Notes: generated by a model from the sequence alone, not told the origin. Shown: positions 42,163-49,163, counted from the stretch's first letter. The stretch is DNA of 64,000 nt from an uncultured Bacillota bacterium (GCA_963823655.1 CAWGMK010000007.1:160001-224000); one strand, 5' to 3'. Numbers and translations are program-made.

Positions 42163-43011
42163 ATGCCTAACATTCAAGCCTCAGCGCAGATTCTCCGCGA
42201 ATATGAGAATCTGAAGCCGGTAGGAAAAAGGCTTGCCAATTACATCATGGATAACGAAAGGGAAGTCATACACCTTTCAATTACGGAGCTTGCCGAGAGG
42301 GCCGACGTGAGCGAGACTACAGTGATAAGATTCTGCAGGCAATTGGGGTATGAGGGCTATCAGGACTTTAAAATCAGGACAGCCCAGGGGATGGTACCGG
42401 AACTGAGCAATATACATGAGGATCTTTCCGAAGGCGACAGCCCGAGATCTGTATTGAAGAAGGTGTTCGCATCCTCCATAAGCGCGATCGAGGATACACT
42501 TCAAATCATTGACGAGGTGGCCTTCGACAAGGCGGCAACAGCCATCGCAAATGCAACGAGGATAGTATTTTCGGGCGAAGGCGGGTCGGGTATCATCGCG
42601 AAAGATGCGGAGCACAAATTCATAAGGCTCGGAATTCCGACATGCTCCAACCTGGATCCCTATATGAGGCTTGCAGCCGCGACTTTGATGAAACCGTCTG
42701 AAGTAATGTTAAGCATCTCACACAGCGGAAGCACTAAGAACATCGTTGAGGCATTATCGCTGGCAAAGAAAAGCGGAGCGACAACAATCTGTATCACGCA
42801 ATATCAAAAGTCACCAATCACAAAAGTCGCCGACATAGTGCTGACAGTATTCTCAAAAGAGGTAGAGTACAGAAGCGAAGCCATGGGCTCGAGAATTGCC
42901 CAGCTTTGTGTAATTGACAGCTTGTATGTAGAAGTTGCAAAGAGGCTTAGGGAGAAATCATGGGACACGATTAAAAAGGTCCGTGAAGCACAAGTTACTC
43001 TTAGGTATTAA
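42163..43011 (+). CDS. RpiR/MurR family transcriptional regulator
   Basis: SITELAERADVSETTVIRFCRQLGYEGY HTH; SIS domain ISHSGST, SPITKVADI. Confidence 0.93.
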   Translation: MPNIQASAQILREYENLKPVGKRLANYIMDNEREVIHLSITELAERADVSETTVIRFCRQLGYEGYQDFKIRTAQGMVPELSNIHEDLSEGDSPRSVLKKVFASSISAIEDTLQIIDEVAFDKAATAIANATRIVFSGEGGSGIIAKDAEHKFIRLGIPTCSNLDPYMRLAAATLMKPSEVMLSISHSGSTKNIVEALSLAKKSGATTICITQYQKSPITKVADIVLTVFSKEVEYRSEAMGSRIAQLCVIDSLYVEVAKRLREKSWDTIKKVREAQVTLRY

Positions 43012-43194
43012 CGTCGCCTAATTAAATAACAGCTCATATCAATATCGCCCATCTATGCCAATGGAATATGGGTTGTCGGGTGAGCATCCCCTGGTTCTCA
43101 GCCCTGTGTCGAAATACTTTGTGAAGAAAAATATATTTCTTTTTTGGTAATTAGGAAGGAATATTTTATTTTTGCGTGTATACTTATATATAAG

Positions 43195-43216
43195 TTTCGA
43201 TAAATATTGATCGAAA
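43195..43216. promoter_or_regulatory. 22-bp near-perfect palindrome, candidate operator
   Basis: TTTCGATAAATATTGATCGAAA (20/22 self-complementary) about 35 bp before the tctC start. Confidence 0.5.
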
Positions 43217-43250
43217 TCATTCTCGATGAAAATAAGGGAGGTAGCAGACC

Positions 43251-44207
43251 ATGTTCAAGAGGTTGACAATCCTGAGCCTGGCGATCCTAATGGCAGTTGT
43301 ATTAGCAGGTTCGGCAATGAGCGCGTACCCGACGCAGCCCATAAACTACCTAATTGCCTTCAGTGCAGGCGGAGAATCAGACATCACCGCACGCATGCAG
43401 CAAAAGTACCTTGAGCAGGAGCTTGGCGTCCCTATCGTAATGACATATAAAACGGGCGGCGGCGGCGCAGTCTGCTGGGCAGAGCTTGTCCGCTCCAAGC
43501 CGGACGGATACATAATAGCAGGCGTTAACGAGCCGCATACCATGCTGCAGCCGATGCAGAGCAACAGCGGATATGAGACAAGCCAGATCCAGAGGGTAGC
43601 CCTCTTCCAGTTCACCCCCTGCGCATTGATTGTGCGCAAGGATAGCCCCTTCAAGACCCTTCAGGATCTGATCGATTTTGCGAAGAAGTACCCCGGCATG
43701 GTGACTGTAGGCGGCAGCGGCAGCTGGGCTTCGACCCACTTTACAACGATGTTGCTTGAGAAGGCGGCCGGAATAAAGCTCACATACATCCCGTTCGCAG
43801 GCTCTGGCGACACTAAGCCCGCAATCCTTGGCGGTCATGTGTCAGCGATAGTTGCACATCCAACGACCGCAGTAGGAATGAAGAATGACATAAGGATACT
43901 GGCAGTAGCTGCAGAGAAGCGCTCTGCGGTGTTCCCGGATGTTTCTACGTTCAAAGAGCTTGGCGTCCCGGGCGTTGTTGAAGGTTCCTACAGAGGCGTC
44001 GCAGTGCCTCCCGGCACCCCAAAGGATATTGTTAACAAGCTGGCAGCGGCCTTCAAGAAGGCCAATGAGGATCCGGCGTTCGTTAAGACCATGACAGATC
44101 TGGGCTTCGACCTGCTGTGGAAGGGCCCTGAGGAATATGAGAGCTGGATCAAGGAGAGAACGGTATATTACGCAGAGCTTCTCAAGACGCTCGGATATTC
44201 GAAATAG
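43251..44207 (+). CDS. tctC: Tripartite tricarboxylate transporter substrate-binding protein (TctC/Bug)
   Basis: Signal peptide; YPTQPI..IAFSAGGESD..AR; GGGG; KPDGY; IPFAGSG; PPGTPKDI. Confidence 0.9.
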   Translation: MFKRLTILSLAILMAVVLAGSAMSAYPTQPINYLIAFSAGGESDITARMQQKYLEQELGVPIVMTYKTGGGGAVCWAELVRSKPDGYIIAGVNEPHTMLQPMQSNSGYETSQIQRVALFQFTPCALIVRKDSPFKTLQDLIDFAKKYPGMVTVGGSGSWASTHFTTMLLEKAAGIKLTYIPFAGSGDTKPAILGGHVSAIVAHPTTAVGMKNDIRILAVAAEKRSAVFPDVSTFKELGVPGVVEGSYRGVAVPPGTPKDIVNKLAAAFKKANEDPAFVKTMTDLGFDLLWKGPEEYESWIKERTVYYAELLKTLGYSK

Positions 44208-47178: not shown

Positions 47179-47191
47179 GAGGCATCTTCAC

Positions 47192-48064
47192 ATGAACAAG
47201 ACAACGCAACTGAAAACACTGCTGAAATCCCCCCAGCTAGAATTCATACTAGAAGCTCACGATGGCATGAGTGCGAAGATCGTCCAGGAGGCGGGTTTCA
47301 AAGGCATTTGGGGCAGCGGGCTTACGATATCAGCGGCCATGGGAGTTCGCGACAGCAACGAAGCAAGCTGGACGCAAGTCCTTGAGGTTATGGAGTTCAT
47401 GAGCGATGCGGTAGATATCCCGATATTACTTGACGGCGACACCGGATATGGCAATTTCAACAACTTCCGCAGGCTCGTCAAGAAGCTAGAGCAAAGGGAT
47501 GTCGCTGGAGTATGCATAGAAGATAAGCTTTTCCCTAAGACGAATTCGTTTATAAATAGCACGAACCAGCCGCTTGCGGATATTCGTGAATTTGCCAACA
47601 AGATCAAAGCCGGAAAGGATACGCAGTCCGATCCCGATTTCTGTATTGTCGCCCGTATCGAATCGTTCATCGCCGGCTGGGGCCTTGAGGAGACTTTGAA
47701 GAGGGCCCACGCATATCACGAGGCAGGGGCCGATGCACTGCTCATTCACAGCAGGATATCCAAGCCCGATGAGATCCTGGCATTCATGAAAGAGTGGAAA
47801 GACACATGTCCTGTGGTCATAGTACCGACCATGTATTATGACACACCGGCAGAAGTGTTCGAGAAGGCCGGGATATCGCTCGTCATATGGGCGAATCACC
47901 TCATGAGAAGCAGCATGGCAAGCATGAAGGAAACGGCAGCGCAGATTGCCGCAGAGCGCTCCATAAGCACCGTAGAGAAGAAAGTGGTCTCCGTAAAGGA
48001 GATATTCCGCATGCAAAACGCGAAGGAGCTTGAAGAAGCCGAGAGGATCTATTTGCCCTCCTGA
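47192..48064 (+). CDS. pepM: Phosphoenolpyruvate mutase
   Basis: PepM signature EDKxxxxxNS present as [10 protein letters not shown]; also [54 protein letters not shown]. Confidence 0.92.
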
Positions 48065-48128
48065 GCAAACGGAAAACATTACTTGGTTTCGATTAATTTC
48101 GGGTATGACAGCTTTGGAGGCGTTTCCG

Positions 48129-49163
48129 ATGAATGCCAAAGTCATGGTTGAGGTAGATTGGCTAAGGAAGATCTCCCGCAAAATCCTTGAGATGCGCGGC
48201 GTAGACAAGGATTGCTCCGATGTTGTGACCGACATGCTCGTCGAGGCGGACCTGTGGGGGAGGAATTCCCATGGAACAATGCGCCTCGCTAAATGGGCAC
48301 CCGGGATCGAAGAGGGAACGATAGCCAAGCGCAATGAGATGAAGCTTATTAGAAGAAGCGGCTCCATCGAGTGGTTCGAGGGGAATATGACTCTTGGCCC
48401 CGTCTCCGCAATGACGGCGATTGAATCGTGCCTGAAAAGGGCAAAGGAATCCGGAGTGGCAATCTGCTGCGTATCCGGCGCGTCCCACATAGGAATGCTG
48501 GGCTATTACGCCCAGAAGGCAGCCCTCAAGGGGCAAATCGGGATAATAATGTGCAATACGGAGCCTGCCATGGCACCTTACGGAGGTTTAGATAAGGTGA
48601 TTGGCACAAATCCGATTGCGGTGGGGATACCTTCCGGCGTTAATCCGCCAATAGTGCTTGATATGGCAACTACAGTGCATGCAAGGGGAAGAGTCGTGGA
48701 AGCCCTCGAAGAGGGCGAAGAGTTGCCGGCAGGATGGGCTGAGGACGCCTTCGGTGAGCCGACAATAGATCCGGCCAAGGCGCTTGAAGGCTCACTGCTT
48801 CCGACAGGGGGCGTAAAAGGATACGCCCTGGCAATAATAGTGGACATACTCTCCGGCGCCCTCTCCGGAAGCTCGGTCGGCACAGGCGTGCTCGGCTCTC
48901 ACGATATGAGCAAGCCTTCCTCAAGAGGGGACTTCTACATGACAATAGACCCGGACCATACAGTAGGCCGTTCAGCGTTTGAGGCATCTGTTATGGACCT
49001 TGCGGGACAGATCAGGTCTTCAAGGACTAAAGAGGGAATGTCGATAATGCTGCCGGGCGACCCGGAAATGGACGAAAGGCAGAGAAGGCTTGAAAAGGGC
49101 ATACCGATGGTACAGTCGATAGTGCAGAAGCTCGAGATGCTGGCCAGCATGCAAGCAAAGTAG
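48129..49163 (+). CDS. Type-2 malate/L-lactate (Ldh_2; ComC/AllD-like) 2-hydroxyacid dehydrogenase
   Basis: ADLWGRNSHG, HIGMLGYY, GTNPIA, DMATT, GGVKGYALA, LPGDPE. Confidence 0.9.
   Translation: MNAKVMVEVDWLRKISRKILEMRGVDKDCSDVVTDMLVEADLWGRNSHGTMRLAKWAPGIEEGTIAKRNEMKLIRRSGSIEWFEGNMTLGPVSAMTAIESCLKRAKESGVAICCVSGASHIGMLGYYAQKAALKGQIGIIMCNTEPAMAPYGGLDKVIGTNPIAVGIPSGVNPPIVLDMATTVHARGRVVEALEEGEELPAGWAEDAFGEPTIDPAKALEGSLLPTGGVKGYALAIIVDILSGALSGSSVGTGVLGSHDMSKPSSRGDFYMTIDPDHTVGRSAFEASVMDLAGQIRSSRTKEGMSIMLPGDPEMDERQRRLEKGIPMVQSIVQKLEMLASMQAK

What the first reader, a model, noticed from the sequence alone, without database searches (positions are those of the whole stretch)
42163..49163. Candidate new phosphonate catabolic pathway: importer + two dehydrogenases + PEP mutase running in reverse
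Seen: one co-oriented unit, RpiR regulator - tctC/tctA/tctB importer - beta-hydroxyacid dehydrogenase - pepM - Ldh_2 dehydrogenase - terminator. PepM has the mutase signature [10 protein letters not shown]. There is no phosphonopyruvate decarboxylase, phosphonomethylmalate synthase, aminotransferase, nucleotidyltransferase or exporter. Established: pepM is the marker for phosphonate biosynthesis; its equilibrium strongly favours PEP, so synthesis needs a pulling step; phosphonopyruvate hydrolase has Thr at the Asn position; TTT systems import carboxylates; Ldh_2 includes ComC, which interconverts sulfolactate and sulfopyruvate. Inference: the cell imports phosphonolactate or a related C3 phosphonate, oxidises it to phosphonopyruvate and lets PepM run downhill to PEP. 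This would break the C-P bond without O2 or C-P lyase and keep the phosphoryl energy. The alternative, also notable, is that Ldh_2 is a new coupling reductase for phosphonolactate synthesis.
Basis: partly seen in the sequence, partly recalled or inferred. Interest (0 to 1): 0.85.

Follow-up and report, generated by a model that had tools for sequence, protein, structure and literature searches.

The report
Importer-linked PEP mutase gene cassette
A small gene cassette joins a nutrient importer and two dehydrogenases to the enzyme that normally starts phosphonate synthesis, which suggests, without proving it, that this bacterium breaks the carbon-phosphorus bond by running that enzyme backwards.

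Summary
Window 42163-49291 carries seven co-oriented genes: RpiR, TctC, TctA, TctB, a DUF1932-type NAD(P) dehydrogenase, PEP mutase and an Ldh_2 dehydrogenase, ending in a strong hairpin. The mutase is canonical: it scores over the NCBIfam equivalog cut-off, 432 bits to the mussel enzyme, and keeps the Asn-Ser motif. The 97%-complete genome has no phosphonopyruvate decarboxylase, PhnX, PhnW or PhnJ.

Corrections: tctB is frameshifted in this assembly, and the "beta-hydroxyacid dehydrogenase" belongs to an uncharacterised DUF1932 family.

New context:
- All seven nearest non-cassette PepMs sit just downstream of a VlpB-like 2-hydroxyacid dehydrogenase in glycan-type biosynthetic loci. This mutase lineage is therefore tied to phosphonolactate chemistry.
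- The full cassette recurs only in a second species of the same genus with different flanks, in a divergent second contig of this bin, and in a few metagenome contigs.

Best reading (about 0.5): import of phosphonolactate or a near analogue, oxidation to phosphonopyruvate, then PepM to PEP.

Main rival (about 0.25): the dehydrogenases pull PepM forward to make phosphonolactate. That coupling is already known for VlpB. A lone decarboxylase in the sister genome also counts against the catabolic reading.

No searched paper describes a catabolic PepM. Nothing here is biochemically shown.

The parts
42163..43011 (+). RpiR/MurR-family transcription regulator (HTH_6 + SIS domain)
   Evidence: Pfam HTH_6 71.4 bits and SIS 60.9 bits. 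No NCBIfam equivalog cut-off is met. It is 75% identical to the L005 copy.
43195..43216 (.). 22-bp palindrome about 35 bp upstream of tctC; a candidate operator (weak)
   Evidence: the repeat finder reports 14-nt overlapping arms, 93% complementary. It is not visibly conserved in L005.
43251..44207 (+). TctC-type periplasmic solute-binding protein with an N-terminal signal peptide
   Evidence: Pfam TctC 179 bits. The best solved relative is BugD, 2F5X, 144 bits. It is 83% identical to the L005 copy. dN/dS is 0.07 against L005 and 0.05 against C11.
44294..45805 (+). TctA large membrane subunit of the TTT transporter
   Evidence: Pfam TctA 456 bits. It is 81% identical to the L005 copy.
45798..46254 (+). 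TctB small membrane subunit, split by a 1-bp frameshift near 46061-46063 (frame 0 to 46160, +1 frame to 46254)
   Evidence: The N-terminal part matches Pfam TctB positions 2-91 at 20.8 bits. The +1-frame part matches positions 89-137 at 27.7 bits, and the intact L005 orthologue scores 58.6 bits against a cut-off of 29.1. The extra G relative to C11 is shown.
46291..47178 (+). NAD(P)-dependent oxidoreductase of the DUF1932 / NAD_binding_2 family, substrate unknown
   Evidence: Pfam. Nearest PDB entries are 1I36, 4EZB and 3QSG, all of unknown function, followed by 3-hydroxyisobutyrate dehydrogenases. The ESM Atlas names it only as 'NAD(P)-dependent oxidoreductase'.
47192..48064 (+). Phosphoenolpyruvate mutase (PepM)
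   Evidence: TIGR02320 scores 396.6 bits, over the 319.55 cut-off, while TIGR02321 (PalA) scores 238, under its 374.4 cut-off. It scores 432.4 bits to Mytilus PepM 1M1B over residues 2-289 without gaps, and the active-site residues are kept.
48129..49163 (+). Ldh_2-family (S)-2-hydroxyacid dehydrogenase, ComC/MDH-like
   Evidence: Pfam Ldh_2 345.9 bits. The best NCBIfam model is L-sulfolactate dehydrogenase at 302.7 bits, under its 500 cut-off. The best PDB match is 2X06 at 237 bits. The orthologue clade is small.
49242..49291 (+). Terminator-like hairpin between convergent genes
   Evidence: 19-bp stem, -37.3 kcal/mol, z -5.79. The sequence was read.

Best explanation
This is a substrate-inducible catabolic cassette for a C3 phosphonocarboxylate, most probably phosphonolactate (2-hydroxy-3-phosphonopropanoate).

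Proposed steps:
1. The TctCAB system imports the compound.
2. The Ldh_2 enzyme (L-specific by family) and/or the DUF1932 dehydrogenase oxidise it to phosphonopyruvate. The DUF1932 enzyme may take the other enantiomer.
3. The canonical PEP mutase converts phosphonopyruvate to PEP in its thermodynamically favoured direction.
4. The C-P bond is thus exchanged for a high-energy enol phosphate that enters glycolysis. RpiR, through its SIS domain, would sense a phospho- or phosphono-intermediate.

Shown here: gene identities, their linkage, the canonical nature of PepM, the lack of other phosphonate enzymes in the genome, and the kinship of this PepM to VlpB-linked PepMs.

Inferred: the substrate, the direction of flux, and the roles of both dehydrogenases and the regulator.
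For: (1) PepM is a true mutase, not a hydrolase.

(2) It is embedded in one co-oriented unit with a binding-protein-dependent importer, an RpiR regulator and two NAD(P) dehydrogenases. The gaps run from -8 to 239 bp, and a strong hairpin closes the unit. That TTT systems are known only as importers is established knowledge, recalled.

(3) The seven genes stay together in the same order in L005, a second species of the same genus, while both flanks differ. They also stay together in contig C11. Contigs of other runs bridge RpiR-TctC-TctA, TctB/DH-PepM and DH-PepM-Ldh_2 (X1 records 1 and 4, X4 record 14).

(4) Six genes compared with L005 have dN/dS of 0.05-0.22, except RpiR, where dS is saturated.

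(5) The own genome (97% complete) has no Ppd and no PhnX, PhnW or PhnJ over cut-off. The unit contains no tailoring or export gene.

(6) 7 of 7 nearest non-cassette PepM loci (L006-L012, 71-75% identical) carry a 2-Hacid_dh gene 53-139 bp upstream of pepM. These loci have Wzy_C, methyltransferase, kinase-like, deacetylase and sulfotransferase genes. The cassette PepMs form a supported clade beside them. This lineage of mutases therefore works with a phosphonopyruvate/phosphonolactate dehydrogenase.

(7) The Ldh_2 protein's nearest characterised relatives are ComC (sulfopyruvate/sulfolactate). Its next-nearest homologues include one beside fumarase and succinate dehydrogenase, which is malate-dehydrogenase-like. 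Both substrates are analogues of phosphonopyruvate.

(8) The PepM equilibrium favours PEP by more than 500 (passage in 10.64898/2026.01.15.699783).

(9) There is a precedent for two dehydrogenases meeting at the 2-oxo acid in sulfolactate catabolism: SlcC/ComC (PMC12421959, passages read).
Against: - No biochemical or expression data exist. No RNA run was available.
- tctB is frameshifted in this copy. Either the importer is broken here or the assembly has an indel error.
- The sister genome G025/G001 has one PepM (the cassette's) and a lone, full-scoring Ppd (399.4 bits) on another contig. There the mutase could feed synthesis.
- The dehydrogenase-pepM adjacency mirrors the biosynthetic vlpB-pepM arrangement. 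Reduction of a 2-oxo acid by NAD(P)H is exergonic, so either dehydrogenase could equally serve as the forward 'pull'.
- Five further PepM hits (80-84% identical) share contig lengths with DUF1932 hits but with none of the 120 listed Ldh_2 hits. The conserved core may therefore be only dehydrogenase plus PepM, and whether those contigs carry an importer is unknown.
- Full-cassette recurrence is confined to one genus: 2 of 7 species, and 2 of 21 genomes of the class. The recurrences are not independent.
- 0 of 80 metagenome loci found with the Ldh_2 alignment have PepM beside Ldh_2.
- Nothing identifies the TctC ligand.
Confidence: 0.5

Rival explanations
1. The cassette is biosynthetic. PepM makes phosphonopyruvate, and the DUF1932 and/or Ldh_2 dehydrogenase reduces it to phosphonolactate, which supplies the thermodynamic pull. 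This would be a non-homologous replacement of VlpB. The transporter and regulator would be unrelated neighbours, or would serve re-uptake.
For: - Coupling of PepM to a phosphonopyruvate reductase is established for VlpB. It was also predicted for a malate dehydrogenase next to Ppm in Paenibacillus larvae (PMC8942020).
- The DUF1932 gene sits exactly where the VlpB-like gene sits in the sister loci.
- DUF1932 and PepM hits share contig lengths in five further cases, with no listed Ldh_2.
- G025 has a Ppd elsewhere.
Against: - The unit has no tailoring, activation, transfer or export gene.
- The importer and regulator move with the enzymes into different flanks.
- The own genome has no other phosphonate gene.
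- The sister biosynthetic loci look quite different, being glycan-type.
- Two dehydrogenases are not needed for a single reduction.
Confidence: 0.25
2. The cassette is catabolic and ends in PepM-to-PEP, but the imported compound is not phosphonolactate. It could be another C3/C4 phosphonate: phosphonoalanine or an N-substituted form oxidised by an Ldh_2-type imine/amino-acid dehydrogenase, phosphonopyruvate itself, or a hydroxyphosphonate needing two oxidations.
For: - The best solved relative of TctC is the aspartate receptor BugD, and phosphonoalanine is an aspartate analogue.
- The Ldh_2 family includes ketimine reductases such as 1WTJ/2CWH.
- Two dehydrogenases could act in series.
Against: - TctC's match to BugD is remote (144 bits).
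- The Ldh_2 protein is nearest to ComC/MDH-type 2-hydroxyacid enzymes.
- The sister PepM clade is tied to 2-hydroxyacid dehydrogenases.
- There is no aldehyde dehydrogenase or aminotransferase in the unit.
Confidence: 0.1
3. The cassette is a decaying or non-functional accessory island, or it is a hydroxy-acid (malate/sulfolactate-type) uptake module next to which pepM is only a passenger.
For: - tctB is frameshifted.
- Contig C11 has about 20 single-base indels inside coding regions.
- TTT components lie beside Ldh_2 genes in 9 of 80 unrelated metagenome loci, so TTT plus Ldh_2 is a common catabolic pairing without PepM.
- The distribution is patchy.
Against: - dN/dS of 0.05-0.22 in the six genes measured, PepM included.
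- PepM keeps every active-site residue.
- pepM lies between the two dehydrogenases, 13 and 64 bp from them, in all copies.
- A split SDR gene nearby suggests the single-base indels may be assembly errors.
Confidence: 0.1

Closest known systems
PalAB(CDE) phosphonoalanine catabolic cluster of Variovorax sp. Pal2 and Burkholderia cepacia Pal6 (review PMC10574752, passages read)
   Same: The logic is the same: transporter genes plus a regulator, one enzyme that converts the imported C3 phosphonate to phosphonopyruvate, then a PEP-mutase-superfamily enzyme that removes the C-P bond. The system is substrate-inducible and is used for carbon rather than phosphorus scavenging.
   Different: - Here a dehydrogenase pair replaces the PalB transaminase.
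- A true mutase (Asn motif, TIGR02320 over cut-off) replaces the hydrolase PalA (TIGR02321 cut-off not met).
- The product would be PEP, not pyruvate plus phosphate.
- The regulator is RpiR, not LysR.
Valinophos-type early steps VlpA (PepM) + VlpB (2-Hacid_dh phosphonopyruvate reductase), and the VlpB-like/PepM pairs of Chloroflexota found here
   Same: The chemistry is the same node, phosphonopyruvate/phosphonolactate. A dehydrogenase gene lies immediately upstream of pepM. The PepMs are 71-75% identical and form the sister clade.
   Different: - The dehydrogenases here are of other families (DUF1932 and Ldh_2).
- There are no kinase, ATP-grasp, glycan or other tailoring genes.
- An importer and a regulator are present instead.
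- The proposed flux is the reverse.
- VlpB details come from passages of PMC8942020. The JACS 2022 paper itself could not be read.
Sulfolactate catabolism via SlcC/ComC-SuyAB (PMC12421959, passages read)
   Same: An Ldh_2-family ComC plus a second, unrelated dehydrogenase both act at the 2-hydroxy/2-oxo carbon of a C3 acid bearing an anionic group on C3. In Chromohalobacter salexigens the substrate enters through a TTT system; that detail is recalled, not seen in a call.
   Different: The substrate is a sulfonate, not a phosphonate. The C-heteroatom bond is cleaved by a lyase acting on the hydroxy acid, so the two dehydrogenases act there as a racemase. Here the 2-oxo acid itself would be the substrate of the bond-breaking enzyme.
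[quoted passage not shown]
   Same: A PepM without Ppd sits next to a malate-dehydrogenase-type enzyme predicted to interconvert phosphonopyruvate and phosphonolactate.
   Different: That cluster is predicted to be biosynthetic, with adjacent ATP-grasp genes and no importer. I could not check whether its 'malate dehydrogenase' is of the Ldh_2 family.

Membership tests
Phosphoenolpyruvate mutase (NCBIfam TIGR02320, EC 5.4.2.9) | Score over the curated equivalog cut-off | tested here: met
   396.6 bits against 319.55. The same result came from the whole-genome search.
Phosphoenolpyruvate mutase (NCBIfam TIGR02320, EC 5.4.2.9) | EDKxxxxxNS motif with Asn, and conserved metal and substrate residues. 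In Mytilus numbering these are W44, S46, D58, D85, D87, E114, K120, N122, S123, R159 and H190. The residue list is recalled from the literature. | tested here: met
   Gap-free alignment to 1M1B with chain number = query number + 4. All listed positions are identical. In that alignment the 1S2U chain has Ala where 1M1B and the query have Asp (chain position 58, query D54), which fits the numbering.
Phosphoenolpyruvate mutase (NCBIfam TIGR02320, EC 5.4.2.9) | Catalyses the PEP/phosphonopyruvate interconversion | not testable with these tools
   This needs an enzyme assay.
Phosphonopyruvate hydrolase PalA (TIGR02321) | Score over the cut-off, and Thr at the Asn position | tested here: not met
   238 bits against 374.4. 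Asn is present.
Tripartite tricarboxylate transporter (TTT) | TctC receptor, TctA large subunit and TctB small subunit all present and intact | tested here: inconclusive
   TctC and TctA are clear (179 and 456 bits). TctB is present but split by a 1-bp frameshift in this assembly. It is intact in L005 (58.6 bits).
L-sulfolactate dehydrogenase ComC (NCBIfam NF040650) | Score over the equivalog cut-off | tested here: not met
   302.7 bits against 500. It is a member of Pfam Ldh_2 (345.9 bits) and 36-39% identical to proteins that sources name archaeal ComC.
Beta-hydroxyacid dehydrogenase (3-hydroxyisobutyrate / tartronate semialdehyde reductase type) | NAD_binding_2 N-terminal domain plus the family's C-terminal domain, or a score over an equivalog cut-off | tested here: not met
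   NAD_binding_2 scores only 29.2 bits, and the C-terminal domain is DUF1932. TIGR01505 scores 26.6 against 340.75. The relationship is at superfamily level only.
Canonical phosphonate biosynthetic cluster (PepM + Ppd / PnMM synthase / PalB / VlpB) | One of the known coupling enzymes encoded near pepM or elsewhere in the genome | tested here: not met
   None is in the unit. No Ppd over cut-off is found in the genome. No 2-Hacid_dh gene lies beside pepM, although unlinked 2-Hacid_dh genes exist. PnMM synthase and PalB were not searched genome-wide.
Known phosphonate catabolic systems (C-P lyase, PhnWX, PhnWAY, PalAB, PhnY*/Z) | Marker enzyme present | tested here: not met
   PhnJ: no match. PhnX: no match. 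PhnW: 122 bits against 400.8. PalA: cut-off not met. PhnA and PhnZ were not searched.

The most novel reading that the evidence does not exclude
A fourth physiological way of breaking the C-P bond, by isomerisation rather than hydrolysis, radical chemistry or oxygenation. An anaerobe-compatible 'phosphonolactate fermentation' would import phosphonolactate, oxidise it to phosphonopyruvate, and have PEP mutase convert it to PEP. The phosphoryl group would then be conserved as ATP-yielding PEP. The cassette would have been built by capturing a producer-type pepM (sister to VlpB-linked mutases) into an importer/dehydrogenase module. It would let consumers feed on phosphonolactate-derived surface glycans of neighbouring bacteria.
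Probability: 0.45. Interest if true: 0.85.

Novelty: new variant of a known kind. Interest (0 to 1): 0.68.

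Why it matters
pepM is used throughout the field as the marker of phosphonate production, in genome mining and in marine and soil surveys. 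If some pepM genes are catabolic, those counts overestimate producers and miss a sink.

A mutase-based route would need no O2 and no radical SAM machinery. It would also release no free phosphate, because it conserves the phosphoryl bond as PEP. That makes phosphonates an energy and carbon source for anaerobes, not only a phosphorus source.

The idea is directly testable with three purified enzymes and one binding protein.

Even if the biosynthetic rival is right, the finding still matters. Two dehydrogenase families not yet linked to phosphonates would join VlpB as coupling enzymes.

Tried and rejected
- **HpnWXZ as a PepM-in-reverse precedent.** This was my recollection and it was wrong. The passages read describe an oxidative aminophosphonate route with no mutase.
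- **SlcC as a beta-hydroxyacid dehydrogenase.** Rejected. A search listing places it in a 2HADH-family paper.
- **Weak Pfam 'Phosphonate-bd' hit of TctC.** It scores 20.9 bits, under the cut-off of 27, and appears again in L005. I treated it as shared binding-protein fold, not as evidence.
- **Metagenome scan with the Ldh_2 alignment A1.** 0 of 80 kept loci have PepM.
- **Empty-site test in five other species of the genus.** Neither flanking gene was found in 0 of 5 genomes, which is uninformative.
- **Joint 41891->49357 in run X1.** The shorter side has only 30 letters and the letters between are not known. I keep it as a weak hint that the seven genes are one insertion/deletion unit. C11 also ends at 49356.
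- **Sequencing runs.** No RNA holder was listed. All holders had small shares (0.16 or less), so expression could not be addressed.
- **Operator conservation.** My alignment included a meaningless 10-base third row, so its conservation line is useless. By eye the palindrome is not conserved in L005.
- **DUF1932 function.** Two papers hold the word and both are irrelevant. The Atlas gives only generic names. A phylum sample gave three remote homologues out of 401 genomes.
- **Clade-specific Ldh_2 residues.** H184, R266, K130 and G117 are specific to the cassette-type clade. Without coordinates I could not tell whether they line the pocket, so I do not use them as evidence.
- **Literature for a catabolic PepM or a TTT link.**
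  - 'phosphonolactate'
  - 'phosphonopyruvate' + 'PEP mutase' + 'catabolic' + 'reverse'
  - 'phosphonopyruvate' + 'tripartite tricarboxylate', 0 papers
  - a six-term search
  - the 2023 degradation review, passages only

  None describes it. Subscription papers and supplements were not searchable. The supplements of PMC8942020 (gene-cluster family figures) may show related neighbourhoods that I could not see.
- **Structure prediction, fold search, complex prediction and the representative-protein search** were not used. None would have settled the direction of flux.

Full report
**1. What is there**

ORF listing and profile searches confirm seven co-oriented genes on the + strand:
- RpiR regulator, 42163-43011.
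- TctC, 43251-44207.
- TctA, 44294-45805.
- TctB, from 45798.
- An NAD_binding_2/DUF1932 oxidoreductase, 46291-47178.
- PEP mutase, 47192-48064.
- An Ldh_2 dehydrogenase, about 48129-49163.

Spacing is tight, with gaps of 239, 86, -8, about 36 (after reading tctB through), 13 and 64 bp. A 19-bp-stem hairpin at 49242-49291 follows (-37.3 kcal/mol, z -5.8). It lies between Ldh_2 and a convergent ATC_hydrolase gene. The consensus scan had missed it.

The flanks are unrelated: argininosuccinate lyase, two lipoprotein-like genes and one other gene without Pfam hits, then the ATC_hydrolase, a cation-efflux protein, a split SDR and a LacI regulator.

**2.

tctB is interrupted. The window reads GGG at 46061-46063 where contig C11 reads GG. 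The last ~57 residues, which match TctB profile positions 89-137, are in the +1 frame up to 46254. The L005 orthologue is intact and passes the Pfam cut-off. A nearby SDR gene is also split, so assembly indels are a real possibility. The frameshift cannot be dismissed, however.

The 'beta-hydroxyacid dehydrogenase' is a DUF1932-family protein. Its nearest solved structures (1I36, 4EZB, 3QSG) have no assigned function. Neither a literature search nor the ESM Atlas gives it a function.

**3. The mutase**

- It scores 396.6 bits on the NCBIfam PEP-mutase equivalog (cut-off 319.55). On the phosphonopyruvate-hydrolase model it scores only 238 (cut-off 374.4).
- It aligns without gaps to the crystallised Mytilus enzyme (432.4 bits).
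- Every residue I recall as catalytic or metal-binding is identical, including the Asn of [10 protein letters not shown] that is Thr in the hydrolase.

I see no sequence reason to expect anything but the reversible PEP/phosphonopyruvate reaction.

**4. The rest of the genome**

The assembly has 2.3 Mb in 13 contigs and is 97% complete.
- There is no phosphonopyruvate decarboxylase; the best hit is 20.6 bits against a cut-off of 312.5.
- There is no PhnX.
- PhnW does not reach its cut-off (122 against 400.8).
- There is no PhnJ.

The cassette is therefore the only recognisable phosphonate module.

Contig C11 (10,285 bp) is a second version of window 39168-49356. It is 86% identical in DNA and has about 20 single-base indels inside genes. 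Its last 1.3 kb is almost identical. It is either a co-binned relative or a decaying duplicate. Its gap-free tctC has dN/dS of 0.05 against the window copy.

**5. Recurrence**

- A scan of one genome per species with PepM returned 46 loci. Only 1 of 46 (L005) has the other six genes, in the same order.
- L005 belongs to a second species of the same genus. In that genus 2 of 7 species have the mutase. In the whole class the figure is 2 of 21 genomes, and in a phylum sample 5 of 401.
- The flanks of L005 are entirely different: GntR, an iPGM-like gene, CinA, an HpcH aldolase, a Trp repressor, AbiE and his genes. The seven genes therefore move as a unit.
- In the protein database the Ldh_2 orthologue clade is small: P0001-P0007, at 53-95% identity.
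- PepM P0124 and Ldh_2 P0002 share a longest-contig length of 9873.
- Five more PepM hits share contig lengths with DUF1932 hits (2311, 68776, 15237, 14058, 9380). None of them shares a length with any of the 120 listed Ldh_2 hits. Equal contig length is an inference of co-location, not proof.
- Contigs from other coded runs (labelled wastewater, groundwater and soil metagenomes) align at 80-98% across the cassette and bridge several gene junctions.
- A metagenome scan with the Ldh_2 alignment found no PepM neighbour in 0 of 80 loci, but it was truncated.

**6. Where the mutase comes from**

All seven nearest non-cassette PepM loci are from Chloroflexota and one Bacteroidota MAG, at 71-75% identity. 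Each has a D-2-hydroxyacid dehydrogenase gene 53-139 bp upstream of pepM. Their neighbourhoods contain an O-antigen-ligase-type gene, methyltransferases, kinase-like genes, a polysaccharide deacetylase and a sulfotransferase. This is the VlpB-type arrangement, in which phosphonopyruvate is reduced to phosphonolactate (PMC8942020, passages).

In the tree, the cassette PepMs form a supported 7-row clade inside a 12-row clade, beside the 2HADH-linked group. The lineage is thus tied to the phosphonopyruvate/phosphonolactate node. In the cassette the VlpB position is occupied by the DUF1932 gene.

**7. The Ldh_2 enzyme**

Its best named relatives are archaeal L-sulfolactate dehydrogenases (ComC), at 36-39% identity, with 237 bits to 2X06. 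Homologues at 41-46% include one next to fumarase and succinate dehydrogenase genes, which is malate-dehydrogenase-like. Sulfopyruvate and oxaloacetate are both close analogues of phosphonopyruvate.

A pair of unrelated dehydrogenases meeting at the 2-oxo acid is known from sulfolactate catabolism (SlcC/ComC; PMC12421959).

**8. Mechanism and its rivals**

I favour, at about 0.5, import of phosphonolactate or a near analogue, oxidation to phosphonopyruvate, and mutase-catalysed conversion to PEP.

On energetics, by analogy with lactate/pyruvate (recalled values):
- The oxidation costs roughly 25 kJ/mol.
- The mutase step returns about 15 kJ/mol, since Keq exceeds 500.
- PEP consumption pulls the rest.

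The same numbers mean the reverse sequence is also feasible. That is exactly how VlpB works. Direction is therefore set by context, not chemistry.

Context favours uptake:
- a binding-protein-dependent importer,
- a catabolic-type regulator,
- no tailoring or export genes,
- no other phosphonate genes in the genome.

Against it:
- the tctB frameshift,
- the lone Ppd in the sister genome (399.4 bits, in a non-phosphonate neighbourhood),
- the VlpB-like position of the DUF1932 gene,
- the narrow, non-independent recurrence.

The rivals are listed separately: biosynthesis (0.25), another substrate (0.1), and a decaying or passenger arrangement (0.1).

**9. Novelty**

The searched literature holds no catabolic PepM. 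A 2023 review of phosphonate degradation lists only lyase, hydrolase and oxygenase routes, and mentions the mutase only as biosynthetic (passages).

All parts are known families and the reaction is known to be reversible. In logic, the closest system is the PalAB phosphonoalanine pathway. I therefore rate the finding a new variant of a known kind, with high interest if the direction is confirmed.

Noticed in passing
G000 contig C11 (10,285 bp) against window 39168-49356: A second, 86% DNA-identical version of the whole island (three upstream genes plus the seven-gene cassette). It has 94 gap openings in the DNA alignment, mostly of 1 bp and many inside genes. The last 1.3 kb (Ldh_2) is nearly 100% identical. 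It is either a co-binned relative or a decaying duplicate. It ends exactly at 49356.
   Followed up: partly
window 41891 / 49357 (run X1): One contig joins 41891 to 49357, skipping 7465 bp, which is the seven genes and their hairpin. Only 30 letters lie on the short side, so this is a weak hint of an empty-site allele.
   Followed up: partly
L133 9943-11091 (-), genome G001/G025: The sister species has a full-scoring phosphonopyruvate decarboxylase (399.4 bits). It stands alone among a 5'-nucleotidase, a subtilase, an outer-membrane beta-barrel and a beta-eliminating lyase gene, with no other phosphonate genes nearby and no PhnX in that genome.
   Followed up: partly
window 51523-51792 and 51842-52324 (+): A short-chain dehydrogenase is split into two ORFs in different frames (adh_short profile 1-41, then 90-193). 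This is either another frameshift or an assembly indel.
   Followed up: partly
window 39446-40306 (-) and 40381-41034 (-): Two paralogous lipoprotein-like genes (signal peptide with a Cys lipobox) without Pfam hits, followed by a 246-aa gene also without hits (41153-41893). All three are duplicated together with the cassette on C11.
   Followed up: no
G000:C7:269420-271145 (outside the window): A second RpiR paralogue (44% identical to the cassette's) lies next to a D-2-hydroxyacid dehydrogenase that is 38% identical to the VlpB-like protein of L010.
   Followed up: no
L006-L012 (Chloroflexota and Bacteroidota MAGs): A conserved block of HPr-kinase-like, thymidylate-kinase-like, polysaccharide deacetylase, 2-Hacid_dh, PepM and ATP-grasp-like genes sits beside Wzy_C, methyltransferase and sulfotransferase genes. 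It is probably a phosphonolactate-derived surface-glycan decoration pathway.
   Followed up: partly
window 43195-43216: A 22-bp palindrome about 35 bp upstream of tctC in the 239-bp gap after rpiR. It is a candidate operator and is not visibly conserved in L005.
   Followed up: partly
window Ldh_2 residues 117, 130, 184, 266 (numbered from 48129): Gly, Lys, His and Arg are invariant in the seven cassette-type Ldh_2 proteins and absent from 19 MDH-like and ComC-like relatives. H184 lies two residues before the family-invariant Arg186.
   Followed up: partly
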